46,660 nt of DNA. It comes from Escherichia phage aalborv. The notes below the pieces were generated by a model. It worked only from the letters and a program-made list of their open reading frames with translations, was not told where the DNA came from and did not search any database. Made by a program: the position numbers and the translations under genes. The stretch lies in the sequence record NC_049829.1. One strand, 5' to 3'. This document shows, in pieces, positions 26,001 to 39,877 of this stretch (positions within the stretch are counted from its first letter, which is position 1; each line of letters begins with the position of its first letter).

Positions 26001-26003
26001 TAA

Positions 26004-26768: not shown

Positions 26769-28048
26769 TACTCATTCCCCTGTGTGCCTGGCTCCGGCTC
26801 CGCTGGCTCCGGTAGCTTGATTTTATTAGTGTCCTTTAGTTTAACGCTTGTGGCGATTGCTCGCAACGTGTCTCGCGCTTCTTCAACATCAAGGAACTGA
26901 CCATCAATAGCCTTGCTGATTGAGTCGATATTCTTATTCAGAATTTCAGCCTGATCTTTATCGCTAGGCACGCTCAAAGGTGAAAACTCAATGCTCCACT
27001 CCTGCTCACTAATGATGAACGGCAATAGAAATTCAAGGATAGGCTTGTAATCCTCAACGCGTTTTCTTTCAATCAGCTTATAGAATGTTTCAAGCGCCGT
27101 ATTTTGGCTTGCGCTAACGCCGCCAACGTTTTTATTTTTCAGGATGATTTCATGAATACCTGAAAGGGAAACTATGCGATCCATTTTCTTTTCCAGAAAA
27201 GAATCAACGCCGCTAATGTCAGAGTTAAGAATATCATATTCCTCATCCTCAGCATCAATACCAATGGCCTTGCCTACGCCGCCCTCATCGTCAACCTGCG
27301 CAAGCCTCAGACGTGCCGCGCTAACACCTTCCTCATCATCGCACAAGTCAGCGAGTCCTTTAGCCTTCCATACCGCCTGTTGTTTCCTACGCAATAATTG
27401 CGTGGCTAATGTTTCACAATAGTTATAATCAACAATAGCCTCAACAAGTCGCTTGTTGAGAACTGACTCACCCCAGCCATCATTGCTGCGTCGCTTTGCG
27501 TTAGGTATCCGCTCACCGTCGATAATGCAAACTCGCGTGTAGTGTACCTGGTATTCCGGCAAGTCTCCGCCTGGTGTTACAGTGTAAAGCACTGGCTCAC
27601 CATAGCGAACCTTGCGGGGATTAGTTTCGCGCGCTTCAACGCGAATCTGATAGCGATCGTAAACGCGCACATCTTCCAGAATAGCTCCAGGCTTTACAGG
27701 TGATTTGAGCGCTCGCCCATCCTGAACAAGAGCAATGATTGCAGATCCGCCAAACAAACGCGACCAGCAAAGCGCATCAATGATTTTTGCATTCAATCGC
27801 TTCTCATCCCACAAAGAACGGAATGCTGCCTCGTCTGCCACGCCGTCAACAGTAAAGCCAGGGGAAACCATTTCCTCTGGTACTACGTCAATAATCCTTT
27901 TTGCCAGGCCCTCTTTTTCGTAAAAGTCAGCAAGCGTCTTGTATGGCATTGACTGCATGTAGAATGGTTGCTCTGCTCGCGATTTGCAATTCTCGCCTTT
28001 AAAGATCTCGTTGTAGCCGTCAGCCTTAACGATTCGTGATTTACTCAT
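26768..28048 (-). CDS. portal protein
   Basis: 426 aa; immediately downstream of large terminase; GGAGG SD; acidic C-terminus. Confidence 0.8.
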   Translation of the reverse strand: MSKSRIVKADGYNEIFKGENCKSRAEQPFYMQSMPYKTLADFYEKEGLAKRIIDVVPEEMVSPGFTVDGVADEAAFRSLWDEKRLNAKIIDALCWSRLFGGSAIIALVQDGRALKSPVKPGAILEDVRVYDRYQIRVEARETNPRKVRYGEPVLYTVTPGGDLPEYQVHYTRVCIIDGERIPNAKRRSNDGWGESVLNKRLVEAIVDYNYCETLATQLLRRKQQAVWKAKGLADLCDDEEGVSAARLRLAQVDDEGGVGKAIGIDAEDEEYDILNSDISGVDSFLEKKMDRIVSLSGIHEIILKNKNVGGVSASQNTALETFYKLIERKRVEDYKPILEFLLPFIISEQEWSIEFSPLSVPSDKDQAEILNKNIDSISKAIDGQFLDVEEARDTLRAIATSVKLKDTNKIKLPEPAEPEPGTQGNE

Positions 28049-28061
28049 TATCTTTCCTCCA

Positions 28062-28088
28062 ATAAAAAAGGCTGGATTTACCAGCCTT
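28062..28088 (-). terminator. intrinsic terminator between large terminase and portal genes
   Basis: Stem GGCTGG..CCAGCC followed by TTTTTT on minus strand. Confidence 0.6.
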
Positions 28089-28122
28089 TGATTATATATT
28101 GGTTTGTCGATTCGTGCTATTT
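28085..28122 (-). promoter_or_regulatory. truncated motif element (AAATAGCACGAAT) plus TATAAT at terminase-portal junction
   Basis: Large terminase stop TAG lies in AAATAGCAC; TATAAT at 28091..28096; terminator follows. Confidence 0.35.
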
Positions 28123-29685
28123 GTTCCGCAAACCTGCCAATTTTTTCATTCTTCCTACCGGATCATCTGCCATGTTCATTTCAATGTTAACCGCATCAAT
28201 GATGTTATCAACAATATCATCATGAGGATGCGAATCATCGAATGTAAACGCCGCAACTTCAGCGAGTATCTCAGCCAGCATATGATGCGATTCTGGAAGT
28301 GCTACGCGTCCGGCGCGCATTACTGGCGCTGCGTCCATTGCTCGCGTAACCTTATCTTTATCTCGCTGAACGGGATTGATCTTGATCATGATTTTTTTCG
28401 CTGCACTCTGAATCAAACCAGTGCCAGACGATTTATCTTCAACATGAATCCTTCTCAACGTTCCGCATTCTTTATTGCGCTTCCAGCACTGATTAACGAA
28501 TGCAACAAAATTCGTCTCAAGGTCCGGTGCTTCCCATTTTCCGCGAACACCATCAATGAAGTAAACGCGATCTTTATACATCCCCCAATAACAGATCACG
28601 GAGTAGTCGTTAAGCTCCCCTGTTTTCTGTGCGGTATCAACCGTGATAAATGTATATTCAAAGCGATCCGGTTTTGGTAGCGTGCATTTCTCGCTGCTGC
28701 CGTAATACTGAAACCACTCTGTTTTAAACACGTTACCGCCAAGCGCAACAGGCTGTTGCTGATACTGACTAGCGAACGTGTACGGATCAGCATTGCGAAG
28801 CGCAAGCAATTCCTCCGCGCTTTCCTTAGCAGGCCAGAATGAATAATGAGCAACGCCATCAATCATCACTGGCTTACTGGACAAAACATCGCGATCAAAC
28901 TCAGGCTTTAACCAATCAGGAAGCGTTTCGCGATATTCCTTAGTAACGAGCGCCGGAATACTAACCACCTTAAACTTGATGCCGCCCATGCCGCCGTTTG
29001 TCATGAACCATGTTGAATCATTGACGTGTAGCCGTTGCTGGACCATTACGATGGGCGTTGTGTCCTTCATTCTACGCGATCGCACCGTGTTCTTTAGGCG
29101 CATGTGTCCGGCTTCTCGCTTTACCTTAGAAAGCATGTCATCCGGTTTGTCTGGATCATCAAGAACCAGCATACCAGTAAATCCATCGTCCATGTATCCG
29201 CCACGCAGACCAGTAACCTGACCACCGATAGAACGCGAGTTAACTTGTAATTTAACCTTGCCGCCATCGGTTACAATCAAATCCTTTGCGCTCGCCTTTG
29301 CCAGCTTTCCAGGCCATAGCTCCTGCCATTCTGGAGAACCAATAATCTCCTTAATTCGGTTGCTATTCTGCTGGACAAGGCCATCACTAAACGAAAGATT
29401 AAGATTTCGCACCTTCTTACTTTTCAATGACGCATAAGGTGACATATGGATCGAGAATATCTCTGTTTTACCGCTGCCTGGCGTTATGTTGAAAATTACA
29501 TTCTGTGACTCGCCTTTGATGATTTTTTCAACTTCGCTGCATAGGTAGCTGAAATGCCAGTTTCCTAAGAATTTCTGACCTTGCAATAATTGAAACCAAA
29601 TGCGGATCATCTTTTCGAATGAATATTCGCTCATTTCCTTAACGGCGCGTTTCTGCGCCGCTGTTAAGTCTTCCCAAATCAGCAT
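28117..29685 (-). CDS. terminase large subunit
   Basis: 522 aa; Walker A-like NITPGSGKTE; C-terminal nuclease-like acidic residues; start overlaps stop of small subunit. Confidence 0.85.
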   Translation of the reverse strand: MLIWEDLTAAQKRAVKEMSEYSFEKMIRIWFQLLQGQKFLGNWHFSYLCSEVEKIIKGESQNVIFNITPGSGKTEIFSIHMSPYASLKSKKVRNLNLSFSDGLVQQNSNRIKEIIGSPEWQELWPGKLAKASAKDLIVTDGGKVKLQVNSRSIGGQVTGLRGGYMDDGFTGMLVLDDPDKPDDMLSKVKREAGHMRLKNTVRSRRMKDTTPIVMVQQRLHVNDSTWFMTNGGMGGIKFKVVSIPALVTKEYRETLPDWLKPEFDRDVLSSKPVMIDGVAHYSFWPAKESAEELLALRNADPYTFASQYQQQPVALGGNVFKTEWFQYYGSSEKCTLPKPDRFEYTFITVDTAQKTGELNDYSVICYWGMYKDRVYFIDGVRGKWEAPDLETNFVAFVNQCWKRNKECGTLRRIHVEDKSSGTGLIQSAAKKIMIKINPVQRDKDKVTRAMDAAPVMRAGRVALPESHHMLAEILAEVAAFTFDDSHPHDDIVDNIIDAVNIEMNMADDPVGRMKKLAGLRNK

Positions 29686-30206
29686 TATATCTTCTCCAGA
29701 ATGTCAATTACCGCCTCTTTGACTTCCTCCGCCGTTACAGCGTCAACGCTTGCGCTTGTGTTATTCTCAATGGTTACGGTTGCTGGCTTTTCAATGCCGA
29801 TCTCTTTACCAATGAATCCGGCGTTAACAATATTGTTTGCGGCAAGCTGGAATTTTTGCTCGTAAACAACGCCGTCGATAAAGTCCATAACATCGCTGAA
29901 TCCTGGCTCGCGTCGCCATTTTTCAAGCACGGAAGCAGAAAGGCCAGAGAATAAGCGGAACCCATTTAAGGTGAACACGCGCGGCTTGTGAATCTTGCTT
30001 TCGTATACATCACCTTGAAAGGATGCAGTTTCCGCAGCCTGTATATGGTTTTCCTCTGCCCACGTAAAGTAACGTACAGCCAGATCAAATACCTGTTCCG
30101 GCGTGTACTTGTGCGCCTTTGTCATTTTTGCAATATCGCCATATTGCTTATTATATAGTTTTTTAAAATTGCAAGCCTTTACGGCTGGCTCAACGTTTTT
30201 AGCCAT
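29685..30206 (-). CDS. terminase small subunit (by synteny)
   Basis: 173 aa ORF directly upstream of and overlapping large terminase; preceded by terminator and TATAAT. Confidence 0.55.
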   Translation of the reverse strand: MAKNVEPAVKACNFKKLYNKQYGDIAKMTKAHKYTPEQVFDLAVRYFTWAEENHIQAAETASFQGDVYESKIHKPRVFTLNGFRLFSGLSASVLEKWRREPGFSDVMDFIDGVVYEQKFQLAANNIVNAGFIGKEIGIEKPATVTIENNTSASVDAVTAEEVKEAVIDILEKI

Positions 30207-30254
30207 AATGCGCCCTCCTTATAACAAAGACTCATTATAGACAAATTGCAGGCA

Positions 30255-30279
30255 ATAAAAAACCCGCCATTTGGCGGGT
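30255..30279 (-). terminator. intrinsic terminator upstream of terminase operon
   Basis: Stem CCCGCC..GGCGGG followed by 6 T on minus strand. Confidence 0.6.
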
Positions 30280-30285
30280 AGTTGG

Positions 30286-30519
30286 TCAATACTTGTATTT
30301 TACTTTTTCATCTTCTTGATTCTCCAGGTGCTGATGGATTTTGCTACCAATCATCAGATAGTGACCGCGCACATCCCATCGCTGCATATTGTTATTCCAT
30401 GTCGCGCTTGCAAACTTCCCGTTCTTAGCAAGAAATTTGCAAATCTTTTCCGATGCGACAAGCAGAATAATTACAGCAAAAACAAAACCAATAACAAAAG
30501 CAGAAATTAAGTTCAACAT
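30286..30519 (-). CDS. small membrane protein (77 aa, N-terminal TM helix)
   Basis: Hydrophobic N-terminus LISAFVIGFVFAVIILLVA; GGGGAG SD. Confidence 0.5.
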   Translation of the reverse strand: MLNLISAFVIGFVFAVIILLVASEKICKFLAKNGKFASATWNNNMQRWDVRGHYLMIGSKIHQHLENQEDEKVKYKY

Positions 30520-30604
30520 GATACTCCCCTTACAAAATTGATTGAAAATTGATGCGTCTCTGGATCTGCACCTGATATAACTTTAGCACATTGAATCGCG
30601 TCAA

Positions 30605-30641
30605 CAGGATTTTGCGCTGAAATCTCGCATTCAAAATCCTG
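30605..30641. other. 10-bp perfect inverted repeat CAGGATTTTG..CAAAATCCTG with 17-nt spacer in noncoding region
   Basis: No flanking T-tract on either strand, so not a terminator; lies in a 515-bp stretch without convincing ORFs. Confidence 0.5.
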
Positions 30642-30900
30642 CCTACATGACTGGCAATTACGCCCCATTCACCTGATCGTCAGCTTTACTTTGTACTTCA
30701 TCTTTTACGATCTCTCGTTTGATGCAATTGATATTGTGCACGGTGTACAAGTATTCACCAATTCGAATGAATTTGCAATCATCATCAATTTCATCCTCAT
30801 TCACGGTAACAGAAAAGCTATTGCAAGGTAACCATTTAATGGATTCATCACCATACCGTCAAACATGAAAGTTAATTTGTACTTTTCCATATATTCACCT

Positions 30901-30942
30901 ATAAAAAAGGCGATACGTCTTACGGCAAAAACCTGCATATCG
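30901..30942 (-). terminator. intrinsic terminator after 31035..31265
   Basis: Stem GGCGATA..TATCGCC with long loop followed by TTTTTTAT on minus strand. Confidence 0.45.
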
Positions 30943-31034
30943 CCGTTGTTGCGTGGCAACCGCGCCACCCGTTCGGCCTTAGCCGCTCTTATGTAAACGA
31001 TTGATATGCTATCCAATCAGGAAATAGTTGTCAA

Positions 31035-31265
31035 TCATTCGCGGTCAAATGCGTTTCCCCATCTTCCACGAAGATAACCACATAACCAGATGAATTGGGT
31101 AATTGTCAGCATTGGCGCAACTGGCTGATAATGTTCGGCAATAATGCCCTTCATAACTTCATCAACATACTTCCCGCGCTTTTCAACATCCGCCTTCATT
31201 GCCTCGCCGCACTTCTTAGCTTGGCGTTTTGCAGCGTTGAATTGTGCCTCGCTCATTCCAAACAT
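31035..31265 (-). CDS. hypothetical protein (76 aa)
   Basis: ORF track; start overlaps stop of upstream micro-ORF (TAATG); terminator 30901..30942 follows. Confidence 0.5.
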   Translation of the reverse strand: MFGMSEAQFNAAKRQAKKCGEAMKADVEKRGKYVDEVMKGIIAEHYQPVAPMLTITQFIWLCGYLRGRWGNAFDRE

Positions 31266-31393
31266 TACAGACCTCTACCCTTCCACAAGTTGTACATTTC
31301 GAAATAGTGCATTGCCGTTTCAGTGTCGCCGCGCTCTAATGCTTCCTCTTGCTTATGTGCGCACCACTGCGACGGTTTTATGTAGTTATCCAT
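31265..31393 (-). CDS. hypothetical small protein (42 aa, MDNYIKPSQWCAHKQEE...)
   Basis: Not in track (<60 aa); AAGGTGA SD 5 nt upstream of ATG; stop overlaps downstream ATG. Confidence 0.4.
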   Translation of the reverse strand: MDNYIKPSQWCAHKQEEALERGDTETAMHYFEMYNLWKGRGL

Positions 31394-31409
31394 TGAATCA
31401 CCTTACCTA

Positions 31410-31458
31410 AAAAATGCCTCGTAAAAATGCGTCCTGTTCGCTGTATGAGGCATTCAAT
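31410..31458 (-). terminator. hairpin with T-tract after 31464..31775
   Basis: 8-bp stem AATGCCTC..GAGGCATT, 26-nt loop, followed by TTTTT. Confidence 0.4.
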
Positions 31459-31463
31459 TTTAA

Positions 31464-31775
31464 TTAAAAATCGTCGAGCAACTCACGAAAGTTGTTAAGC
31501 GTTGCAACTTTAGCGCAATCCCACTCCGTAGATCCAGCTTCTTCCCACGGAGAACCAGGCCCGTGATTTGTCATGTCGTCGATTAGTGATGAAATTTCAT
31601 CAACAACAATCTCTTTCAAATGCTCTCGGTGCTCTATATCTTCCACTGGCTCAAAAGCCTGAATTACACCACCCAAAACGCGTTGCTGTGCTTTCGCATC
31701 GTCGAGCGTATCGTAAATATTTCGGATCTGCTTGTTGGCAAACTTCCCGATCCCGTAAGTGTGAATGTAAATCAT
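31464..31775 (-). CDS. hypothetical acidic protein (103 aa)
   Basis: ORF track; terminator 31410..31458 downstream. Confidence 0.5.
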   Translation of the reverse strand: MIYIHTYGIGKFANKQIRNIYDTLDDAKAQQRVLGGVIQAFEPVEDIEHREHLKEIVVDEISSLIDDMTNHGPGSPWEEAGSTEWDCAKVATLNNFRELLDDF

Positions 31776-32080
31776 TTTAATTTCTCCACATCAACCATAG
31801 TGCAGCGAGAAACAACACCAGATACACGATCAACTTTCTTTTTGCTCTTTCGCTTCCAGTTGTGAACTTTTAAAGCCGTGTATCCATTCTCAGCAAGCCA
31901 TTTTGCAGTTTCTGCCGCGTCAGTCGGACGCGGTGAGAATTTTTGCTCAAGCTGAGTAAAAAGCTCTCTTGCAACCTCATGATCAATCATCATTTCATCA
32001 TCTGATCCGCAAAGTGCACGAGAACCTACAGCATGCAGGAGTTTCTTTGCTTGTTCTTCTGAAAGGTTAATCGTGATCAT
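31772..32080 (-). CDS. hypothetical protein (102 aa)
   Basis: Start set to ATG 32080 (MITINLSEE), which overlaps the upstream stop as ATGA; track start 32098 lacks SD. Confidence 0.5.
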   Translation of the reverse strand: MITINLSEEQAKKLLHAVGSRALCGSDDEMMIDHEVARELFTQLEQKFSPRPTDAAETAKWLAENGYTALKVHNWKRKSKKKVDRVSGVVSRCTMVDVEKLK

Positions 32081-32289
32081 TCTTCTACTACCTCGCATTC
32101 GTCATGGTTTACGCCGATGTTATCACCGATTCGAATTTCTTCTGTATTGCGGATTGCTAACACGCAGTAAGAACCATCGCGAAAGAATCCGTCAACCTCT
32201 ACAATGTCACCAACTTTGAACCCGCATTGCTCAAGGGTAATGCCTCCGTCGTTGCGGTCAATGTCAACCCTGGTGATTCGAATTTTCAT
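32077..32289 (-). CDS. hypothetical protein (70 aa)
   Basis: ORF track; GAGGAAA SD; driven by motif promoter 32316..32366. Confidence 0.5.
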   Translation of the reverse strand: MKIRITRVDIDRNDGGITLEQCGFKVGDIVEVDGFFRDGSYCVLAIRNTEEIRIGDNIGVNHDECEVVEE

Positions 32290-32315
32290 TTTGATTTCCT
32301 CTGTTTCGCTTCAAT

Positions 32316-32366
32316 GAGGACACTTTAACAAATGCCCTCGCGGAAGTTTTAACAAAAAATGCTGTT
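32316..32366 (-). promoter_or_regulatory. motif-type promoter (variant AACAGCATTTTTTGTTAAAA), -10 TAAAGT
   Basis: Motif 32347..32366; 22-bp spacer; -10 32322..32327. Confidence 0.45.
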
Positions 32367-32652
32367 AGCTCATGTAATAGATTTCATCGCGAACAAAATC
32401 GTCAAAATCAGATTGCGTCAATGGTCGATCCTCTAGTGCTGCCTGCTCAATCATTTCTACAAGGGCGCAATCCATATCAAGGTAATGAGCATCAAAATCA
32501 TACCATGAAGCCATTTCACGCGCCCATGAGCGGCAATTCTTGAATCCGTAACGTCTGATACAGTTTGCTGTATGAAATGAGTCATTCCAACCACGCTCAA
32601 GCGCTGCCTTTTCGAATGCGTTAATCAACATTTTGCGATAGCTTTTAGCCAT
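32365..32652 (-). CDS. hypothetical protein (95 aa)
   Basis: ORF track; AAGGAGG SD; stop TAA abuts promoter motif. Confidence 0.5.
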   Translation of the reverse strand: MAKSYRKMLINAFEKAALERGWNDSFHTANCIRRYGFKNCRSWAREMASWYDFDAHYLDMDCALVEMIEQAALEDRPLTQSDFDDFVRDEIYYMS

Positions 32653-32694
32653 TTGTTTCCTCCTTTTGGCGCCACCTAAGCGGCGCGGTTAACA

Positions 32695-32874
32695 TTACTT
32701 CTTTTTTCCGGTCAGCATGTATCGCTTACCGTCTTTGAATCCGTCACCATAGCCAGCATATCCGCCAGCCATGAAGATAATCAATCCGCCGATTGACTCA
32801 ACAATGCCGCTATATCCATAAGCCAGGTAGCAACCAGCGATAAGGGCAATAAAAATGATAATTACTCTTTTCAT
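32695..32874 (-). CDS. small membrane protein / possible lipoprotein (59 aa)
   Basis: Start at ATG 32874 (MKRVIIIFIALIAGCY), lipobox-like LIAGC; ATGA overlap with upstream interrupted frame. Confidence 0.45.
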   Translation of the reverse strand: MKRVIIIFIALIAGCYLAYGYSGIVESIGGLIIFMAGGYAGYGDGFKDGKRYMLTGKKK

Positions 32875-33233
32875 ACGTGATCCCATACATCGCACTTTTT
32901 GACAACCAGCAAACGCAGCTTGTAAGGTCGGAACTTGTGCAACTTTTTAGCGTACTCACGCGCTTCACTGTAGCTATTGAACTCCATAGCCCAAAAACCG
33001 AAAGCATCATCCGTCAGATATTCCCAATCGCCACTGATAACGCGGCGGCGTTGCAGGTAATAAATCTTGCATTCTGTGCAAGCAACGATCCGGTATTAAG
33101 GTTTAAAGATTCGTTTTAATGCGTTAAAAACCATAGTGCGGCCCTCACTGAATAAATAACTAAGAGAATCAAGAATAACACAATCATGATTTCATAAAAA
33201 TCAAACGGTGGCTTAGGATTGGTTGCGTTGTTG

Positions 33234-33638
33234 TTATTTCCCAGCATTTCGCGCAATCCCCTTGTACATGCCGTAAAGAACATTATCAGGCTTTTTGAAC
33301 TTGATCGCATTGCGCGCAAGTCGGCGCATACGTCGCGCATCGTATCGCGCTCGCTGAAATGGCATTTTCATTGTCTTAACATGGCAGCCGCGATGATCGC
33401 TGATTCGCTTAAGCTCAATCAAAACGCCTTGAGTTGCCTCTACGCAATAATGATCAAAGCCAAGTCGTCTAGTAATGATATAGCCATTCTTGATGCGTGG
33501 TCGGTTAAACTCTTTTAACGATCCGATATAGCGATCGGAAGCCGTTACAATCTCACCTTTACGAATGCCGCATCGCTCATCATATACCCAGGTTACAACA
33601 AATTTTGTGCCTACGCGGATTTTGTGAAGATCTAACAT
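33234..33638 (-). CDS. hypothetical basic protein (134 aa)
   Basis: Start moved to ATG 33638 (MLDLHKIRVG, AAAGGA SD) because track N-terminus lies upstream of promoter -10 (33669..33674). Confidence 0.5.
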   Translation of the reverse strand: MLDLHKIRVGTKFVVTWVYDERCGIRKGEIVTASDRYIGSLKEFNRPRIKNGYIITRRLGFDHYCVEATQGVLIELKRISDHRGCHVKTMKMPFQRARYDARRMRRLARNAIKFKKPDNVLYGMYKGIARNAGK

Positions 33639-33662
33639 GTTCAAGTCCTTTCGTTGATTGGT

Positions 33663-33714
33663 GTTTGCATTATAGCGAGGCATTGCGCCCCGCTTTTAGC
33701 AATTCGTGCTATTT
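33663..33714 (-). promoter_or_regulatory. motif-type promoter variant (AAATAGCACGAATTGCTAAAA), -10 TATAAT
   Basis: TTGCTA then 22-bp GC-rich inverted-repeat spacer then TATAAT (33669..33674). Confidence 0.5.
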
Positions 33715-34299
33715 GATCTTTGTGTGTTTCCACTGGACCGTTTTGATGATCTCGTCAACAGTCTTTTCTGGATCGCCATCAGTCATTGTGAAGTCGTAAT
33801 GCTTGGCGCGGTGATGGTATCCGCTCAGGTCAATATAGTTTCGTGAATCGCCATCAAACGTGAAGCCTTCGCGATGCAGTCGGCAAATGTGCACTTCATG
33901 GCCTGCCTTAACTAGCGGCTTGATTTCTTCAGGGAATCCGCCGTCACTAATTACAACAGCTAAATCTCTGTACATCTCGTGTACTTGCTCAACCATGCGA
34001 TTTCCGAAATATTGCTCGCCAAAAGCTGGCTTCATAACTTCTTCGCTAATCCAGATCATGAACTGGCGAGGCGACTTTCCTTGCAAGATTGCTTGGGGCT
34101 TTTCTTTCTGCTCGCGGTCGTTATACAGATTAATGAACTCGTCATATCGGTAAACGCCAAGCATGGAAAACGCAATATCAAACATAGGCTGTTTAAACGA
34201 CGCTTTAACGGCTGCGTAACGATGGCCCGTTAAGTATGCCGCAAGCGTATCCTTGCCAACTCCTGGCGGTCCGTTAAGGATGATAATGTCGCGTTTCAT
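33709..34299 (-). CDS. P-loop nucleotide kinase (dNMP kinase / polynucleotide kinase-like)
   Basis: Walker A GPPGVGKDT near N-terminus resembling T4 gp1 / Pnk kinase P-loops; stop TAG inside promoter motif. Confidence 0.55.
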   Translation of the reverse strand: MKRDIIILNGPPGVGKDTLAAYLTGHRYAAVKASFKQPMFDIAFSMLGVYRYDEFINLYNDREQKEKPQAILQGKSPRQFMIWISEEVMKPAFGEQYFGNRMVEQVHEMYRDLAVVISDGGFPEEIKPLVKAGHEVHICRLHREGFTFDGDSRNYIDLSGYHHRAKHYDFTMTDGDPEKTVDEIIKTVQWKHTKIK

Positions 34300-34301
34300 A
34301 T

Positions 34302-34418
34302 TTATTCACCTCTTGCTTTCAAGACAGTAATTTCTGTTGTCTCGCTTAAAACCTTGAAATTTCTATTCTCGCTTTTAATTGTCATATTGACAATCATAAC
34401 CCGACCGCGCTCTATCAT
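34302..34418 (-). CDS. micro-ORF (38 aa) translationally coupled to kinase gene
   Basis: Stop TAA immediately followed by kinase ATG; preceded by overlapping 30-codon ORF 34415..34507 (ATGA); weak SD. Confidence 0.25.
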   Translation of the reverse strand: MIERGRVMIVNMTIKSENRNFKVLSETTEITVLKARGE

Positions 34419-34517
34419 GTCGGCAAGCTCTCGAAGGTGACTTGCAGTTTTGGCAATCTCTTAGCTTTTTTCGTCAAATGGTGGCAATTGCATTTAGTTG
34501 TCTCCATGTCTGATTGT

Positions 34518-34568
34518 AGGCCTACTATACAGCAGGCCCGATAATCTGTTTTTGCAAAAAGTGCTATT
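34518..34568 (-). promoter_or_regulatory. motif-type promoter (variant AATAGCACTTTTTGCAAAAA), -10 TATAGT
   Basis: Motif 34549..34568; -10 at 34524..34529. Confidence 0.5.
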
Positions 34569-34743
34569 AAACAGAAAAATCATCATCATCTGGATCAATG
34601 GCCCAGGTGTCACCGTGGTCGTCGTACACAAAGTAATTGCCAGCACTCGACACATCGGCATGATAACGCTTTCCAGCGGTGAAACATTCGTTGACTTCCT
34701 CGCATTCACTACCCAGGAATTTAATCACTGTTGATTGCATCAT
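34567..34743 (-). CDS. small acidic protein (58 aa, C-terminus DPDDDDFSV)
   Basis: Not in track; GGAGG SD 9 nt upstream; stop TAA immediately precedes TAGCAC of promoter motif 34549..34568; preferred over track ORF 34494..34709, which reads through the motif. Confidence 0.45.
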   Translation of the reverse strand: MMQSTVIKFLGSECEEVNECFTAGKRYHADVSSAGNYFVYDDHGDTWAIDPDDDDFSV

Positions 34744-35362
34744 TTTTCAATTCCTCCACGCCGCAACGCAAACATTTACCATCAACCACACTAAAACAGT
34801 GCTCGCCTTCGCATTCGATTTTTGGCTTCAATTCATCCACGCCGTGCGATTGGATGTGATTATGTGGCTTGTCGTATTCCGTGACCTGATAGGTTGTGAT
34901 CCCCAGGCTGCGGAAGTGCTTAACCACGTTCGGCGAATCGTCAAAGGCGCAAACGATGTTCTCCAGGCCAATAGCTTGCAAGACTTCTTCTTTGATGATT
35001 GTATCTTTTCGATTGTCTTCCTTTCGGCGCATGATTAACGCGTCGTGCTTGATGCCGTTATAATTTAACCAGTCGCAGGTGTCAGCCATCACCTCATCGC
35101 TGCGTCCGGTCAGGATAACGATGGCAAATCCTGACATCCACAATCCGTTAACCACTGCAACCGTGCTCTTAATCGGCGAATCGCCAACAGCCGCTTTGTT
35201 GAACTCAGACCAGCTTTCTGTAAGGTGCAAATCTTCTGTCGGCAGCAGGTGCAAGCGATGCGTTCCATCTGATAACGTTCCGTCCAGATCAACAATAACA
35301 ATCGGCTTGCTCGTGGAAAAATGGTATTTGCTGCCAAAAAGTTCGAACTCGTATTTTTTCAT
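34721..35362 (-). CDS. HAD-superfamily phosphatase with C-terminal Cys4 zinc ribbon
   Basis: DxDGT motif (VIVDLDGTLSD) near N-terminus; C-terminal C-x3-C...C-x2-C. Confidence 0.6.
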   Translation of the reverse strand: MKKYEFELFGSKYHFSTSKPIVIVDLDGTLSDGTHRLHLLPTEDLHLTESWSEFNKAAVGDSPIKSTVAVVNGLWMSGFAIVILTGRSDEVMADTCDWLNYNGIKHDALIMRRKEDNRKDTIIKEEVLQAIGLENIVCAFDDSPNVVKHFRSLGITTYQVTEYDKPHNHIQSHGVDELKPKIECEGEHCFSVVDGKCLRCGVEELKNDAINSD

Positions 35363-35580
35363 TATTTCACTTCCTCAAATTCAGCAATTACCATAGCGTG
35401 TGCCATAACCTTAGTGCCTTCACCGCCGTTCAGGAACATGCGATGCCCCTTACTATTGCTCACATAAAAAGATCCGGTTGATGATTTCAACTTTTGCGCC
35501 ATATAGATTTCGCCAGGCTTGAACATGCCAGCGCAACCATAGTTAACGGAAATGCATTTCATCTTCTTGTTAATGTACAT
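35362..35580 (-). CDS. hypothetical protein (72 aa)
   Basis: Start moved to ATG 35580 because track TTG start lies inside promoter motif 35636..35655. Confidence 0.45.
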   Translation of the reverse strand: MYINKKMKCISVNYGCAGMFKPGEIYMAQKLKSSTGSFYVSNSKGHRMFLNGGEGTKVMAHAMVIAEFEEVK

Positions 35581-35604
35581 CGTTTTATCTTCTTCATTGA
35601 AAGT

Positions 35605-35655
35605 GAGGCCATTATACCTGGCCCCACATTTGAGTTTTAACAAAAAGTGCTATTT
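35605..35655 (-). promoter_or_regulatory. motif-type promoter, -10 TATAAT in loop of GGCC..GGCC inverted repeat
   Basis: Motif 35636..35655; -10 35611..35616. Confidence 0.55.
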
Positions 35656-35839
35656 AGAATTTTACCTCTTCCACAAGCTCAACCATTTTATAACCCAGCC
35701 GATAAGAGTCACCGAACAACAGCACCCCCATAAATTCATCGTGGCTTATTGACTCTTTGCCAACAGTTCTAAGCTCGCCGTTGTGAATCACAGTATCGCC
35801 GATCTTGATTTCTGATTTATGGACTAATTTCGTTTTCAT
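35654..35839 (-). CDS. hypothetical protein (61 aa)
   Basis: ORF track; AGGTGA SD; stop TAA abuts promoter motif. Confidence 0.45.
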   Translation of the reverse strand: MKTKLVHKSEIKIGDTVIHNGELRTVGKESISHDEFMGVLLFGDSYRLGYKMVELVEEVKF

Positions 35840-35854
35840 TTATTCACCTGCTAA

Positions 35855-36040
35855 TTAAAAGAAAGCTACATAGTTTGCAATGCCTTTGGCGTCGTCGTTT
35901 GGCATTGCTTTTACAGCCAGGTCATAACCTTCCTCTACCTTCTGCTTTGCTGTTTCTTCGTTGTAACCCCAGATAACCAGGATTTTAACTACGTTTTCTT
36001 TGTTCAGGATTTTAAGGTCTTTGGTGATGCGACGTGCCAT
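35855..36040 (-). CDS. hypothetical protein (61 aa)
   Basis: ORF track; GAGGAAAA SD within conserved 5'UTR (CATCGAAACGA) of promoter module 36067..36117. Confidence 0.5.
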   Translation of the reverse strand: MARRITKDLKILNKENVVKILVIWGYNEETAKQKVEEGYDLAVKAMPNDDAKGIANYVAFF

Positions 36041-36066
36041 TTTGTTTTCCTCAATCTCGTTTCGAT

Positions 36067-36117
36067 GAGGCTATTATGCCAGGCTTTTACACCTGGCTTT
36101 TAACAAAAAGTGCTATT
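36067..36117 (-). promoter_or_regulatory. motif-type promoter module, exact inverted copy of module 40786..40836
   Basis: Motif 36098..36117; spacer hairpin GCCAGG..CCTGGC; -10 CATAAT 36073..36078; conserved leader CATCGAAACGA. Confidence 0.55.
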
Positions 36118-36118
36118 T
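36073..36118. repeat. 46-bp exact inverted repeat of promoter module (partner 40785..40830)
   Basis: Reverse complement of 40785..40830 matches 36073..36118 base for base. Confidence 0.85.
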
Positions 36119-36379
36119 AATATCTGTTGTGACTTGCTGGTGCATTACGCTCTTTCCGCTGTTGTGCGTGCTATTCGTTGCGCCTTTGCAATTGGTGTAA
36201 TAGATCGCGCGACCGTTATCATAGAATCTGTATGCTGTGCATCCATCAACAGTGAACAGGCGACCGACTTTGAAATCTGACTCCACGCCTACGACAACCG
36301 TTGATTCCGATGCCTTTCGCATCCGGTCAGGGTAGCGATTGCAATCAAAACTCCAATTAATGCCTTGTTCATTATTCAT
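36113..36379 (-). CDS. hypothetical protein (88 aa)
   Basis: ORF track; stop TAG inside promoter motif 36098..36117. Confidence 0.5.
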   Translation of the reverse strand: MNNEQGINWSFDCNRYPDRMRKASESTVVVGVESDFKVGRLFTVDGCTAYRFYDNGRAIYYTNCKGATNSTHNSGKSVMHQQVTTDIK

Positions 36380-36842
36380 CCTCCATCTTTACCATCTCGT
36401 TAAGCATTTCATTCATTCGCTCAAGTGCGATTGCCGCACCTTCCAGGCGCTCGCCTTCAAGATCGCTGATTCGCGGCTGTGTTTTAAGCAGTTGAGCAAT
36501 AAACTTTGCTCGCCACTTGATTTCAAGTTTCGCTATATCATCTCCAGTCAGAACACGCGGTTTGCTTTTGGATTCTGTGAGCGCAAACACGAAACCATCA
36601 CCTTCATCAGTCACCTTGCGCTTAATGCTGATCACGCCTTTTTGCTTCACTTCAGGTACGCGGTTGACAACCTGGCGCATGTACGATGCCGTAATTGCTT
36701 CGCCGTTCTCCACATTAGCGCACAAAAAAAGTGCTGGCATGAATACATTATTACGCTCACCACTACCAATTGCCGCGCCCAAGTCGCGAAGCATATCGCA
36801 GAACTCACTACGCGACATATAACTAATATTTTCTTCATTCAT
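36372..36842 (-). CDS. hypothetical protein (156 aa), first gene of leftward operon
   Basis: Start set to ATG 36842 (MNEENISYM, AAGGAG SD); sigma70-like TTGACA-17-AATAAT promoter 36873..36907. Confidence 0.5.
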   Translation of the reverse strand: MNEENISYMSRSEFCDMLRDLGAAIGSGERNNVFMPALFLCANVENGEAITASYMRQVVNRVPEVKQKGVISIKRKVTDEGDGFVFALTESKSKPRVLTGDDIAKLEIKWRAKFIAQLLKTQPRISDLEGERLEGAAIALERMNEMLNEMVKMEDE

Positions 36843-36872
36843 GGCGTCTGCTCCTTTTGTTGCGTTTAAACT

Positions 36873-36907
36873 GGATGCATTATTTCCTTGCCTTTCCTGC
36901 ATGTCAA
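36873..36907 (-). promoter_or_regulatory. sigma70-like promoter TTGACA-17-AATAAT for leftward operon
   Basis: -35 at 36902..36907, -10 at 36879..36884 (minus strand); 30-nt leader with AAGGAG SD. Confidence 0.5.
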
Positions 36908-37185
36908 TATATTTTGTGTTTTAATAACAATTTTTGGCATGTGGCGCGTTTAAAGATAACAAAATGCACTACTTAAGTTATTGGTTTAACAGATAAAAGC
37001 GACCCTGTTGACCTGGTTGACGGAGTATTGCCGCTACCCCATATATATACATACAAAAATCACCACACATCACCATTGATTAAAAAATATACAATCACAC
37101 ATACATATCACCACAAACAATACCACTCCACCACATACCCATAGAACAAGCTCAACAGTAAATAACAAATATAAATACATATATA

Positions 37186-37201
37186 ACTAACTTATTGATT
37201 T
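37186..37201. repeat. 16-mer ACTAACTTATTGATTT (copy B)
   Basis: Identical to 9289..9304. Confidence 0.8.
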
Positions 37202-37442
37202 TATGGGTATATATATAAATTTTATTTTGTTCTTTTTGTTGATGAACGCCGTTTCTGTTATCTAAAAGTGCGGAGGCTTATTTGAGATAACATGGGGAAC
37301 AGAAATAACAGATGAGCGCGCCAGGATTGCCGGAAAGGACGCAAGAGGACCGCGTTTCTCTATCCCCTCCACACAAAAAGTTAATCATCTGATTAAAATT
37401 GATCAAACTCAATATCTCACAATCCAGGTGATCGCGAATGAG

Positions 37443-37482
37443 TTATTCCTGTTATTCCTGATTAATGGAATAGATGGAATAA
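37443..37482. promoter_or_regulatory. dyad of repeated half-sites TTATTCC(x2)...GGAATA(x2), candidate operator upstream of first rightward promoter
   Basis: TTATTCC at 37443 and 37452; GGAATA at 37467 and 37476; 14 bp upstream of motif 37496. Confidence 0.45.
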
Positions 37483-37495
37483 TGACCAGTCAGCA

Positions 37496-37546
37496 AATAG
37501 CACTTTTTGTTAAAACTGAATCCGCCTGATCGGGTACATTACACAC
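37496..37546 (+). promoter_or_regulatory. motif-type promoter module, first of the rightward early array
   Basis: Motif 37496..37515; -10 TACATT 37535..37540; leader CATCGAAAAGAA. Confidence 0.55.
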
Positions 37547-37575
37547 ATCGAAAAGAACCGATCAGGAGATAGCAA

Positions 37576-37848
37576 ATGAACATCAGCAAAACCACTTTCA
37601 ACTTCGCTAAGCGTCACGGTCTGGATCTGACTGTTGAAGATTTTGGCGATGTTCTGCAACTCTGCATTTGGGAAGCAGATAACGATTGCGAGTGGCTTTG
37701 CTCTTATCGTATCAACTACGATTGCTTGACCTGGCACGGCAATATCTATCTGCCGCAAGAAGTGAAAGAGGAATTGCCAGAAACCATCAACAACGAAGTT
37801 TTTTTGCGCAAAGTCATGAAGTTTATTGCCGAGGAGATCAAGAAATGA
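37576..37848 (+). CDS. hypothetical early protein (90 aa)
   Basis: ORF track; first gene after promoter module 37496..37546; AGGAGA SD. Confidence 0.5.
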   Translation: MNISKTTFNFAKRHGLDLTVEDFGDVLQLCIWEADNDCEWLCSYRINYDCLTWHGNIYLPQEVKEELPETINNEVFLRKVMKFIAEEIKK

Positions 37849-38084
37849 TTAATGAAGTGGATTTTGAACTCGCTGAGGCCCAGGTAAGGGCCAAAAAGAT
37901 GGGATTGCGGATCTTGACGCAAAAAGTCGAGTTCCCGTCGATGCCGTTCGCATCATTCCATAAAGTGACTGTGTTCAGTAGCAAACGCGAGTTTAACGCG
38001 CTAATCCCTGATGGTGATGATAAGCGCATGGCGAAATTTATTAACGAATCCTGTGATGTTCTGGATGCCGTTAAACATGGTTAA
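37845..38084 (+). CDS. hypothetical early protein (79 aa)
   Basis: Start ATG 37845 overlaps upstream stop (ATGA). Confidence 0.5.
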   Translation: MINEVDFELAEAQVRAKKMGLRILTQKVEFPSMPFASFHKVTVFSSKREFNALIPDGDDKRMAKFINESCDVLDAVKHG

Positions 38085-38103
38085 CAACAAAGGAGAAATA
38101 AAG

Positions 38104-38370
38104 ATGCCACGTATCAATGCACCTATTCCAGATAAGCGCAAAGCACGTTTGCTCAATAACGGGTGTTACGCCCTGCGGCCTGCATTTAAGGATCGCACCT
38201 TTCCGGTTATCGTTAACGTATCTCACGTAAGCCGTAGCGGGGATCTGGTATTTGTTAAAGGTGAGGATCTGTCGGCGCTTGGATTCTATGGCGGTATTTA
38301 CGGTGAGGCGCTAGGATTCTGGATTAAAGATCCGTTAACTGGCGAGCGCGAAATCGAATTCCTGGACTAA
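38104..38370 (+). CDS. hypothetical early protein (88 aa)
   Basis: AAAGGAG SD; stop TAA abuts promoter motif 38370..38389. Confidence 0.5.
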   Translation: MPRINAPIPDKRKARLLNNGCYALRPAFKDRTFPVIVNVSHVSRSGDLVFVKGEDLSALGFYGGIYGEALGFWIKDPLTGEREIEFLD

Positions 38371-38420
38371 ATAGCACTTTTTGTTAAAACTCAATCCTCG
38401 TATTCCTGTACATTACACAC
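38370..38420 (+). promoter_or_regulatory. motif-type promoter module
   Basis: Motif 38370..38389; -10 TACATT 38409..38414; leader CATCGATAACGAA...GAGGATTTGAAA. Confidence 0.55.
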
Positions 38421-38447
38421 ATCGATAACGAATGCGAGGATTTGAAA

Positions 38448-38600
38448 ATGGTTACTCTGATTACCTGGGAACACGAAAACAGCCAGCCGGAAGTGCGCGA
38501 ATTTGAAACTGTAGCCGCTTGTTACAACCTGGCGAAAAATGGCGGCTTCTACAAGGCGCAAATCGTTAACGAATTTGGAGTTGTTGACTATGAGTTCTAA
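38448..38600 (+). CDS. hypothetical small early protein (50 aa, MVTLITWEHENSQ...)
   Basis: Not in track; GAGGA SD in conserved 5'UTR of promoter module 38370..38420. Confidence 0.45.
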   Translation: MVTLITWEHENSQPEVREFETVAACYNLAKNGGFYKAQIVNEFGVVDYEF

Positions 38601-38871
38601 GTTTTACAGCTACACCGACACAGTGGATTTTGAGGGGATACAATTGCCCCTACCTAACAACTACAGGTACATAACTCGTGACCGTTTCGGCTTTATCCAG
38701 GGGTGGCGGAACAAACCAACACACACTGAGTTCGGTATGTCTGGAGGAGAAGAGTTGCCGATCACTTTTGGGCATCAAAGCGGTGAAAATCTTCCGGTTG
38801 TTGCGCGTAAGTATCGTAGACGAAAGATCACAAGACGGCTTATCTCTTTAACTGGATCTGTTGTTGAATAG
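38590..38871 (+). CDS. hypothetical early protein with basic C-terminus (93 aa)
   Basis: Start ATG 38590 (MSSKFYS, GGAG SD) overlapping previous ORF end; stop TAG inside promoter motif. Confidence 0.5.
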   Translation: MSSKFYSYTDTVDFEGIQLPLPNNYRYITRDRFGFIQGWRNKPTHTEFGMSGGEELPITFGHQSGENLPVVARKYRRRKITRRLISLTGSVVE

Positions 38872-38917
38872 CACTTTTTGTTAAAACCGATGCGCCTCTG
38901 ATTGGTATATTAATCGC
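38867..38917 (+). promoter_or_regulatory. motif-type promoter module
   Basis: Motif 38867..38886; -10 TATATT 38906..38911; leader CATCGACAACGAA...GAGGATTTAAAA. Confidence 0.55.
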
Positions 38918-38942
38918 ATCGACAACGAACGAGGATTTAAAA

Positions 38943-39140
38943 ATGGAAAATCAAGTTGATGTTAAAGTTGTACAGCGTGACAAGTCTCACGAAAAAGGTT
39001 TGTTTAAGAAAGGTGCTGAAATCACCATTGACCTTGATGATATGGAGGCGTACCACTCAGGGCTAACTTGGAACGTGCGCAAATGTGAAAACGGCCTGTT
39101 CAAGTTAAATGGCTTTGAAACATACATGGAGATCATTTAA
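38943..39140 (+). CDS. hypothetical early protein (65 aa)
   Basis: ORF track; GAGGATTTAAAA-ATG conserved leader. Confidence 0.5.
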   Translation: MENQVDVKVVQRDKSHEKGLFKKGAEITIDLDDMEAYHSGLTWNVRKCENGLFKLNGFETYMEII

Positions 39141-39460
39141 TGGCAAAGCAATTAAAACTTAAGTGCGTAGAAACTTATAACTCAATTTGGAAATTTACGC
39201 GCGGAAAAGAATATCCACTAATGTGAAATCTCAAAGAAGATCCTCATGTAATTTCAGATAATGGTCTTCACCTTTATTTGATGGAATACAACGATGGCTA
39301 TATTGGCGCTGGTGTTCCAGGTCATAAATTTAAGATGAAAAATAAGAAATGAGGCTATTTATTTTCAAAAATGCCCGGATGGTAGCGGTTGCAAATGACC
39401 ATTACGGAGGCGACGGAAAAAGAGCGCCACGTCATTCATATTTCAATTGAGGATATTTAA

Positions 39461-39688
39461 ATGAAAGCAAAAGTTTTAAACATTATGGCAACTATTGACG
39501 CTCATCACCGCGTGGCTGTAAAACTTGATAAGTCCTGCGGAATTAGCCAAATCACTATCACCGAGGGCAAAGGCGGCTATCTTATTGGTAGCCATCCAGG
39601 CGGTAAGGTGCGCAAATACAATAAAGATCAGGTAAAAGAATTACTGGAAGAAAACGCTTTCTATATTCAAAGTTGGCGCGCTCTTTAA
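39461..39688 (+). CDS. hypothetical early protein (75 aa)
   Basis: ORF track; GAGGATATTTAA-ATG leader; followed by terminator 39696..39718. Confidence 0.5.
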   Translation: MKAKVLNIMATIDAHHRVAVKLDKSCGISQITITEGKGGYLIGSHPGGKVRKYNKDQVKELLEENAFYIQSWRAL

Positions 39689-39695
39689 TTAATCT

Positions 39696-39718
39696 GGCGG
39701 CGTTTTGCCGCCTTTTAA
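39696..39718 (+). terminator. intrinsic terminator after 39461..39688
   Basis: Stem GGCGGC..GCCGCC followed by TTTT. Confidence 0.55.
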
Positions 39719-39730
39719 ATGAGGTGGAAA

Positions 39731-39847: not shown

Positions 39848-39877
39848 GTCAAGACGGTTTTTTTTGAGCGCCTTCAA

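What the first reader, a model, noticed from the sequence alone, without database searches (positions are those of the whole stretch)
32871..33134. ORF interrupted by an in-frame TAA, translationally coupled to the downstream gene
A minus-strand frame reads MVFNALKRIFKP, then TAA (33096..33098), then 74 further sense codons (YRIVACTECKIYY...KKCDVWDHV) ending in an ATGA overlap with the start of 32695..32874. The downstream part has no in-frame ATG/GTG/TTG before an internal Met. This may be a recent pseudogene, a readthrough site, or a sequencing or assembly error. An antisense plus-strand ORF (32877..33119, GTG start) and a sigma70-like TTGACA-18-TAAGGT (32899..32928) overlap the same region.
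Basis: seen in the sequence. Interest (0 to 1): 0.5.

Follow-up and report, generated by a model that had tools for sequence, protein, structure and literature searches.

The report
Nonsense mutation in small phage gene
A single G-to-T change has put a stop codon at codon 13 of a small, conserved, function-unknown gene of a T1-like (Hanrivervirus) coliphage, so this copy is a recent knock-out allele (or a base-call error), which is ordinary and not a recoding signal.

Summary
Minus strand 33134..32871 reads MVFNALKRIFKP, TAA (33098..33096), then 74 sense codons, ending in an ATGA overlap with the next gene. The window is a Hanrivervirus-like phage (Drexlerviridae, Tempevirinae). In every relative examined the same 264-nt gene is intact and annotated (pSf-1 gp50, vojen_18, grams gp20), and codon 13 is GAA (Glu). 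The window differs there by one base. Apart from the stop, its protein is identical to those of vojen, pSf-1 and slyngel.

The gene is real: pN/pS is 0.08 and 31 of 46 variable sites are at third codon positions. Nothing supports readthrough or recoding:
- The stop is not conserved in relatives.
- The context is UAA-U.
- The window has no tRNA gene.
- No in-frame restart codon occurs before Met50, which lacks a Shine-Dalgarno sequence.
- No intact conserved gene carries an in-frame stop.

The antisense ORF is broken in two relatives (pN/pS 2.4). The promoter-like site fails the consensus scan and is not conserved.

The best reading is a recent loss-of-function allele of a dispensable accessory gene, probably also weakening the coupled downstream membrane-protein gene. 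A consensus base error cannot be excluded without reads. Other public assemblies carry independent nonsense, frameshift and deletion alleles of this gene. Its function remains unknown.

The parts
32871..33134 (-). Disrupted 87-codon gene, ortholog of pSf-1 gp50 / vojen_18 / grams gp20 (hypothetical protein, Tempevirinae-restricted family)
   Evidence: Full-length homology to annotated intact CDSs. Among 14 Hanrivervirus alleles pN/pS is 0.077 and 31 of 46 variable columns are at codon position 3.
33096..33098 (-). Premature ochre codon TAA at codon 13. The mutated base is the T at 33098 on the minus strand (A on the plus strand, where relatives have C). Relatives have GAA (Glu).
   Evidence: Alignment. 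The change is window-private. No GenBank phage record matches 61 of 61 bases around it. The allele is absent from IMG/VR, metagenome and genome collections.
33099..33134 (-). Residual 12-codon ORF (MVFNALKRIFKP), the only product expected from the normal start
33142..33146 (-). Shine-Dalgarno GAGGG of the gene, 7 nt upstream of the ATG
   Evidence: Sequence. Duplex with the 16S 3' end is -7.0 kcal/mol. Invariant in relatives.
32871..33095 (-). Untranslated remainder: 74 sense codons plus the stop, encoding the whole predicted beta3-alpha-beta fold. It is still free of amino-acid changes.
32871..32987 (-). Only remaining in-frame ORF (Met50 to the end, 38 aa). No usable ribosome-binding site, so expression is unlikely.
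   Evidence: SD duplex -2.6 kcal/mol with wrong spacing.
32695..32874 (-). Downstream 59-aa membrane-protein gene whose ATG overlaps the normal stop (ATGA, 32871..32874). It has a weak SD of its own, so its translation is probably coupled and is now uncoupled by the premature stop.
   Evidence: The 4-nt overlap is annotated in vojen, B1.3, pSf-1 and phiE31-2. SD -4.0 kcal/mol against -7.0 to -11.6 for neighbouring genes. PHROG 14912, unknown function.
33116..33247 (-). Upstream 43-aa membrane-peptide ORF (pSf-1 gp49 homolog) whose 3' end overlaps the first 19 nt of the disrupted gene. Not affected by the mutation.
   Evidence: Annotated in pSf-1, B1.3, MatMar and PaulSarasin.

Best explanation
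This is a recent nonsense (ochre) allele of a genuine but dispensable accessory gene.

Shown: the window is a Hanrivervirus-like T1-type coliphage. Its ortholog of pSf-1 gp50 carries one G->T transversion that turns Glu13 (GAA) into TAA.

Inferred mechanism: ribosomes start normally at ATG 33134 behind a good Shine-Dalgarno sequence and terminate after 12 codons. UAA-U is the most efficient termination context known in E. coli. They cannot restart in frame, so none of the folded 74-residue remainder is made and the allele is null.

The normal stop overlaps the start of the next gene (ATGA), and that gene has only a weak Shine-Dalgarno sequence. Termination 225 nt upstream should therefore also lower translation of the downstream 59-aa membrane protein (inferred, not shown).

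The phage tolerates this because the gene is non-essential. Other natural phages lack it through deletion, frameshift or other stop codons. The biochemical function of the protein is unknown.
For: - Coordinates and reading frame are verified.
- Orthologs are intact with GAA at codon 13 in vojen, B1.3, pSf-1, phiE31-2, five IMG/VR contigs, aaroes, BEK12B, herni and slyngel.
- The T is private to the window and absent from IMG/VR, metagenome and genome collections.
- The gene is under purifying selection: pN/pS 0.077, with 31 of 46 variable sites at position 3. It is conserved in Warwickvirus, Changchunvirus and a Klebsiella phage at 35-67% identity.
- There are zero non-synonymous differences from vojen, pSf-1 or slyngel apart from the stop, so the lesion is young.
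- Termination should be final. No tRNA gene is present. No in-frame start occurs before Met50, and Met50 has SD -2.6 kcal/mol.
- Dispensability is shown by independent broken alleles: GAA->TAA at codon 57 (L027); a 1-nt deletion in the A5 run (L028); a deletion from codon 30 to the leader of the next-but-one gene (C4, A127, A15a); a 116-nt internal deletion (2019SD1); an N-terminal replacement (L029); and GAA->TAA at codons 50 and 51 in Warwickvirus and Changchunvirus orthologs.
- The sequence looks reliable overall. About 55 conserved CDSs align to grams in one frame without stops. The C>A share of private substitutions is 22.8%, against 21.5-23.7% in four relatives. Of 340 private coding substitutions, 211 are synonymous.
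Against: No reads are available, so a consensus base error or a minority variant fixed by the assembler cannot be excluded. The window also has a private 1-nt deletion that frameshifts another small gene (about 30827/30828). That fits either real decay of accessory genes or imperfect sequence. The polar effect on the downstream gene is inferred only from the ATGA overlap and a weak SD. Loss of function is inferred from the truncation, not measured.
Confidence: 0.72

Rival explanations
1. Sequencing or assembly artefact. The phage really has GAA at codon 13, and the T at 33098 is a consensus error (G->T is the classic oxidative-damage library artefact) or a minority variant picked up by the assembler.
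For: The change is a singleton seen in no other record or collection. It is a G->T transversion. The window has one other private gene-breaking lesion, a 1-nt deletion in the grams gp27 homolog. One of the other public GAA->TAA alleles comes from a contig with about 2x coverage (L035).
Against: The window's private substitutions show no excess of C>A/G>T relative to four complete relatives (22.8% against 21.5-23.7%). Of those in conserved coding segments, 62% are synonymous, as expected for real divergence. About 55 conserved genes are intact. The other private indel is not in a homopolymer. Artefacts rarely reach consensus at normal coverage (general knowledge).
Confidence: 0.2
2. Functional stop-codon readthrough, suppression or reassignment. 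The TAA is decoded as a sense codon at useful frequency, so the full-length protein is still made.
For: The frame downstream of the stop is fully open and unchanged. However, that is also what a very young mutation would look like.
Against: - The stop is not conserved. All orthologs have a sense codon here, GAA in Hanrivervirus.
- The context is UAA followed by U, the most efficient termination signal in E. coli (established knowledge: Poole, Brown and Tate 1995).
- The window encodes no tRNA or suppressor.
- TAA serves as the normal stop of neighbouring genes. The only other in-frame stops against grams CDSs lie in a 5'-truncated gene remnant (6141..6353) and in the doubtful grams gp09 ORF.
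- The nearby hairpin (-7 kcal/mol) is no more stable than shuffled sequence, z = -0.29.
Confidence: 0.03
3. The region's real function lies on the other strand: an antisense gene (32877..33119, plus strand) driven by a sigma70 promoter (32899..32928). On this view the minus-strand frame would be irrelevant.
For: An 80-codon GTG ORF and a TTGACA-18-TAAGGT motif do exist.
Against: The antisense frame has stop codons in two of 13 relatives (L009, L021) and pN/pS 2.39, whereas the sense frame has 0.077. The motif has only 3 of 6 matches in the -10 hexamer and is not reported by the scan, which found 1 site in the region against 4.0 expected. The -35 becomes TTAACA in vojen through a synonymous change of the sense gene. 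All flanking genes are on the minus strand.
Confidence: 0.02

Closest known systems
Shigella phage pSf-1 gp50 (AGI61433.1), Escherichia phage vojen_18 (QHR65339.1), grams gp20 (YP_009901814.1): 87-aa hypothetical proteins of Hanrivervirus
   Same: Same length (264 nt), same position between the 43-aa and 59-aa membrane-peptide genes, and the same ATGA junction. Amino-acid identity is 99-100% apart from codon 13.
   Different: The window copy has TAA instead of GAA at codon 13, so only a 12-residue peptide can be made.
Other natural null alleles of the same gene family in public assemblies (L027, L028, L034, L035; 'Campylobacter' phages C4, A127 and A15a; Shigella phage 2019SD1)
   Same: Independent inactivation of the same small gene by GAA->TAA nonsense changes, a frameshift or deletions, in otherwise complete-looking phage genomes.
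   Different: The lesions are at different positions (codons 30, 50, 51, 57, about 63). None shares the codon-13 stop.
Loss-of-function escape alleles of small phage accessory genes, e.g. Gp54 of phage Bas11 (W43*, deletions) escaping CapRel-SJ46 (PMC11578894)
   Same: A small early protein of unknown function in a T1-like coliphage, knocked out by a premature stop or deletion without loss of viability.
   Different: There is no sequence relationship. Gp54 is a 66-aa beta-barrel whose structure is in the PDB, and the profile of this family finds no PDB chain with E below 0.6. No selection by any defence system has been shown for the window allele.
UPF0339 / YegP-like small domains (PDB 2k49, 3bid, 6q2z)

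Membership tests
pSf-1 gp50 / vojen_18 protein family (Tempevirinae 82-87-aa hypothetical protein) | Full-length sequence homology to family members | tested here: met
   85 of 86 aligned residues are identical to grams gp20, the only mismatch being the stop. Identical to the vojen, pSf-1 and slyngel proteins apart from codon 13.
pSf-1 gp50 / vojen_18 protein family (Tempevirinae 82-87-aa hypothetical protein) | Conserved synteny: after the P-loop kinase-like gene, the 134-149-aa gene and the 43-aa peptide gene; before the 59-aa membrane-protein gene and the 95-aa gene | tested here: met
   Same gene order in vojen, B1.3, pSf-1, phiE31-2, MatMar, tiwna, PHB17, PaulSarasin and KLB26 and in the window.
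pSf-1 gp50 / vojen_18 protein family (Tempevirinae 82-87-aa hypothetical protein) | Uninterrupted reading frame giving the full-length protein | tested here: not met
   TAA at codon 13. The locus is a member of the gene family but is a null or pseudogene allele.
Programmed stop-codon readthrough / recoding site | The in-frame stop is conserved among orthologs | tested here: not met
   All 13 Hanrivervirus orthologs have GAA. More distant orthologs have Glu, Lys, Val or Arg codons. No record matches 61 of 61 bases around the stop.
Programmed stop-codon readthrough / recoding site | Leaky stop context or a stimulatory downstream RNA structure | tested here: not met
   The context is UAA-U, the strongest E. 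coli terminator by established knowledge. The downstream hairpin is -7 kcal/mol with z = -0.29 against shuffles.
Programmed stop-codon readthrough / recoding site | Full-length product detectable | not testable with these tools
   Needs mass spectrometry, a Western blot or a reporter assay.
Phage with reassigned stop codon / phage-encoded suppressor tRNA | Suppressor tRNA gene in the genome | tested here: not met
   ARAGORN finds no tRNA or tmRNA gene in the 46,660-base window.
Phage with reassigned stop codon / phage-encoded suppressor tRNA | In-frame TAA codons scattered through other conserved genes | tested here: not met
   tblastn of 76 grams CDSs shows about 55 conserved genes with no in-frame stop. 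The only other stops lie in a 5'-truncated remnant and in a doubtful ORF.
CapRel trigger Gp54(Bas11) family | Sequence similarity to Gp54, a 66-aa beta-barrel with a structure in the PDB | tested here: not met
   The profile of the family searched against all PDB chains gives nothing below E = 0.66. The predicted fold is beta3-alpha-beta, not a beta-barrel.
Antisense protein-coding gene (32877..33119, plus strand) | ORF open and under purifying selection in relatives | tested here: not met
   Stops in L009 and L021; pN/pS 2.39.
Sigma70 promoter (32899..32928, plus strand) | Adequate match to both hexamers, and conservation | tested here: not met
   The -10 TAAGGT matches 3 of 6 and the site is not reported by the scan. 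The -35 is TTAACA in vojen.

The most novel reading that the evidence does not exclude
The stop may not be neutral decay. It could be a selected loss-of-function: the 87-aa protein, or the coupled membrane protein downstream, might be sensed by or costly in the presence of a host defence system. Knock-outs would then be repeatedly favoured on some hosts, as with Gp54(Bas11) W43* against CapRel.

This would explain why a gene under strong purifying selection (pN/pS 0.08) appears with at least seven independent inactivating lesions in public assemblies. In GenBank the neighbouring upstream 149-aa gene is full-length in 127 of 127 records, against 118 of 134 for this gene.

A side puzzle is that all four known nonsense alleles are GAA->TAA.
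Probability: 0.1. Interest if true: 0.5.

Novelty: already known. Interest (0 to 1): 0.13.

Why it matters
In itself it matters little. It is a point-mutated null allele of a hypothetical accessory gene, and annotators should mark it as a pseudogene or disrupted CDS rather than call a 38-aa fragment.

It has two modest uses. First, it is a ready-made natural knock-out of a conserved Tempevirinae early gene of unknown function, and probably a knock-down of the coupled membrane-protein gene. Comparing it with an isogenic revertant could reveal what the gene does. Second, together with the other broken alleles found here, it marks this gene as conditionally dispensable. That profile is typical of host-interaction or defence-related phage genes.

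Tried and rejected
1. Function by sequence. Pfam, PHROGs and PADLOC give no hit for the repaired 87-aa protein. The family profile against PDB sequences gives nothing below E = 0.66. A profile search of 1.84 billion representative proteins finds only 13 clusters, all of the same small phage family apart from two long proteins with local matches.
3. Link to the CapRel trigger Gp54(Bas11). The paper was read; it concerns a different protein, so this was rejected.
4. Search for the TAA allele elsewhere. No exact match in IMG/VR, metagenome or genome collections. The 38-aa remnant ORF and two neighbouring window proteins are not on record in the gene-position index, so no independent assembly of this phage could be found to act as a resequencing check.
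5. Suppressor tRNA: none.
6. Intrinsic terminator just after the stop (33082..33066). It has a 6-bp stem and is not more stable than shuffles. Not pursued.
7. G->T damage-artefact hypothesis. The genome-wide private-substitution spectrum shows no excess.
8. Antisense ORF and promoter: rejected.

Full report
**Observation.** On the minus strand the window reads ATG (33134..33132), then 11 further sense codons (MVFNALKRIFKP in all). TAA follows at 33098..33096, then 74 sense codons and TGA at 32873..32871. The TGA overlaps the ATG (32874..32872) of a 59-codon ORF as ATGA. In that frame ORF listing finds only a 38-aa ORF starting at Met50 (32987), so there is no ATG, GTG or TTG between the stop and Met50. 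The plus-strand GTG ORF 32877..33119 and the TTGACA-18-TAAGGT motif (32899..32928) are also present.

**What the locus is.** A megablast of 32600..33400 hits 90 phage records, the best at about 96% identity: Escherichia phages vojen, grams and herni. All are Drexlerviridae, Tempevirinae, Hanrivervirus. In vojen, vB_Eco-B1.3, pSf-1 (gp50) and phiE31-2 the same 264 nt are annotated as an intact CDS. This CDS lies between a 43-aa peptide gene and a 59-aa membrane-protein gene and has the same 4-nt overlap. Their translations are MVFNALKRIFKPEYRIVAC.... The alignment shows that the window differs at codon 13 by one base, GAA to TAA.

Eight further Hanrivervirus sequences and one more copy of the haarsle genome (five IMG/VR contigs, aaroes, BEK12B, herni, slyngel) all have GAA. 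Over 61 nt centred on the stop, no GenBank phage record among 120 matches is identical; the best is 60 of 61. Exact searches for the TAA allele find nothing in IMG/VR, metagenome contigs or 185,579 prokaryotic genomes. The same pattern with N at the mutated base does find relatives.

**The gene is real, and the antisense features are not.**
- Among 14 Hanrivervirus alleles, 31 of 46 variable columns are third codon positions and pN/pS is 0.077.
- The antisense frame has pN/pS 2.39 and carries stop codons in two relatives.
- Orthologs at 35-67% identity exist in Warwickvirus, Changchunvirus and a Klebsiella phage, in the same gene order.
- The sigma70-like motif matches only 3 of 6 in its -10 hexamer. 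The consensus scan does not report it and finds fewer sites in the region (1) than in shuffles (4.0).
- Its -35 hexamer is lost in vojen through a synonymous change of the sense gene.

**The lesion is young.** Apart from the stop, the window's gene has no amino-acid difference from vojen, pSf-1 or slyngel. Besides the G->T, its only private base is a synonymous change in codon 46.

**Can the stop be bypassed?** Nothing suggests so.
- The window has no tRNA or tmRNA gene.
- The stop is followed by U. UAA-U is the most efficient termination signal in E. coli (established knowledge: Poole, Brown and Tate 1995).
- The hairpin 14 nt downstream (33082..33066) folds at -7 kcal/mol, no better than shuffled sequence (z = -0.29).
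- TAA is the ordinary stop of the two upstream genes.
- In a tblastn of all 76 grams CDSs against the window, about 55 conserved genes align in one frame without any stop, so the code is standard.
- In-frame reinitiation is impossible before Met50, whose upstream sequence pairs with the 16S 3' end at only -2.6 kcal/mol and with wrong spacing. The gene's true start has -7.0 kcal/mol.

The expected product is therefore a 12-residue peptide. The entire predicted fold is lost: strands at residues 13-19, 24-30 and 37-39, a helix at 55-65, and a strand at 72-78, with mean pLDDT 79.

**Likely consequence for the neighbour (inferred).** The downstream 59-aa membrane-protein gene starts inside the normal stop (ATGA). 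This arrangement is conserved in Hanrivervirus and in the Klebsiella phage, with a 1-nt overlap in Changchunvirus and a 7-nt gap in Warwickvirus. Its own SD is weak, -4.0 kcal/mol against -7.0 to -11.6 for neighbours. Terminating 225 nt upstream should therefore reduce its translation.

**Real mutation or sequence error?** No reads are available, and the phage could not be found in any other assembly. Indirect tests favour a reliable sequence.
- In a five-genome comparison (window, grams, PGN590, haarsle, Henu8) the window has 464 private substitutions, of which 22.8% are C>A/G>T. The four relatives have 21.5-23.7%. There is no oxidative-artefact excess.
- Of 340 private substitutions inside conserved coding segments, 211 are synonymous and 218 lie at third positions. 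Only two create stops: this one, and one in an already truncated gene remnant.
- The window does carry one other private gene-breaking lesion, a 1-nt deletion (TTACGCTTGC to TTAC-CTTGC) that frameshifts the grams gp27 homolog. All 15 best relatives are one base longer.

I put the odds at roughly 3.5:1 for a genuine mutation over an error.

**The gene is dispensable and is often found broken.** Protein and DNA searches turned up other damaged alleles:
- GAA->TAA at codon 57 in a 49.7-kb Logan contig (L027).
- A 1-nt deletion in the A5 run giving a frameshift at about codon 63, in a 50.5-kb ENA contig (L028).
- A deletion joining codon 30 to the leader of the next-but-one gene in 'Campylobacter' phages C4, A127 and A15a, across CGCCGC microhomology.
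- A 116-nt internal deletion in Shigella phage 2019SD1.
- Replacement of the N-terminal third at the same CGCCGCCGC site (L029).
- GAA->TAA at codon 50 of a Warwickvirus ortholog (L034) and at codon 51 of a Changchunvirus ortholog (L035, about 2x coverage).

In GenBank, 118 of 134 records cover at least 80% of this protein, against 127 of 127 for the gene immediately upstream. Many of the 16 partial records are near-clonal.

All four nonsense alleles are GAA->TAA. Under the lineage's own substitution spectrum, GAA->TAA should make up 10-30% of one-step nonsense changes in these genes. The coincidence is therefore notable, but it is post hoc and rests on four cases.

**Function.** It remains unknown.
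- No Pfam, PHROG or PADLOC family matches.
- No PDB sequence relative was found.
- Only 13 clusters appear among 1.84 billion representative proteins.
- BFVD returns only uncharacterised phage proteins.
- It is not related to the CapRel trigger Gp54 of Bas11, a 66-aa beta-barrel.

**Verdict.** This is an ordinary, recent E13-ochre null allele (or possibly a base-call error) of an annotated, conserved, non-essential small early gene of a Hanrivervirus phage. It probably has a polar effect on the coupled downstream membrane-protein gene. Readthrough, an antisense gene and an internal promoter are not supported. Interest is low. The only mildly interesting thread is the repeated independent inactivation of a gene that is otherwise under strong purifying selection. 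That pattern would fit a host- or defence-dependent accessory function but has not been tested.

Noticed in passing
window 30661..30890 (minus strand), lesion between 30828 and 30827: The homolog of grams gp27 (77 aa, hypothetical) carries a window-private 1-nt deletion (TTACGCTTGC to TTAC-CTTGC, not in a homopolymer). It splits the gene into two ORFs, 30801..31016 and 30658..30804. All 15 best GenBank relatives are one base longer.
   Followed up: partly
window 6141..6353 (plus strand): A 5'-truncated remnant of the grams gp57 / pSf-1 gp89 gene sits next to a tail-fibre module swap; the junction is shared with phage PGN590. It contains two GAA->TAA stops: 6168 is shared with PGN590 and 6285 is private to the window. 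This is a decaying pseudogene.
   Followed up: partly
L027:1001-1171, L034:601-750, L035:601-753 (orthologs of window 32871..33134): Three other public assemblies carry independent premature stops in orthologs of the same gene, at codons 57, 50 and 51. All are GAA->TAA, like the window's. GAA->TAA is expected to be only 10-30% of one-step nonsense changes in these genes. The excess is unexplained; the sample is small and the test post hoc.
   Followed up: partly
window 33042..33050 and 32680..32685 (minus strand); L010, L012, L029: The CGC CGC CGC (Arg29-31) run in the gene and a CGCCGC just after the downstream membrane-protein gene are the end points of a roughly 360-bp deletion in phages C4, A127 and A15a. 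That deletion fuses codon 30 in frame to the leader and the 95-aa protein of the next-but-one gene. The same run is the break point of an N-terminal replacement in metagenomic contigs (L029). It is a small recombination hot spot.
   Followed up: partly
whole window (1..46660): The window looks like a circularly permuted, near-complete Hanrivervirus genome: grams gp69 maps to 46649..46410 and gp68 to 158..3. It lacks detectable homologs of grams gp11, gp13, gp15-17, gp58-60 and gp74. Its homolog of the grams tail-fibre gene gp61 aligns only over the first 162 residues (67% identity), next to the junction shared with PGN590.
   Followed up: no
whole window compared with L023, L036, L037, L038: In all five Hanrivervirus genomes about 22% of lineage-private substitutions are C>A/G>T. 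Per site, this is nearly as frequent as each transition class and far above the other transversions. This is an unusually G->T-rich substitution spectrum for the genus.
   Followed up: no
window 37203..37634 (plus strand): The ORF annotated as grams gp09 (145 aa, overlapping gp08 and lying in a divergent-promoter region) has three in-frame stops in the window despite 84% identity. It is probably not a real gene in grams either.
   Followed up: no
window 33066..33082 (minus strand): A terminator-like hairpin (CTTGCA-CAGAA-TGCAAG followed by ATTTATTA) lies 14 nt after the premature stop, inside the coding sequence. It is weak (-6 to -7 kcal/mol, z = -0.29). It would normally be melted by translating ribosomes and is now untranslated, so a small contribution to polarity is conceivable.
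   Followed up: partly
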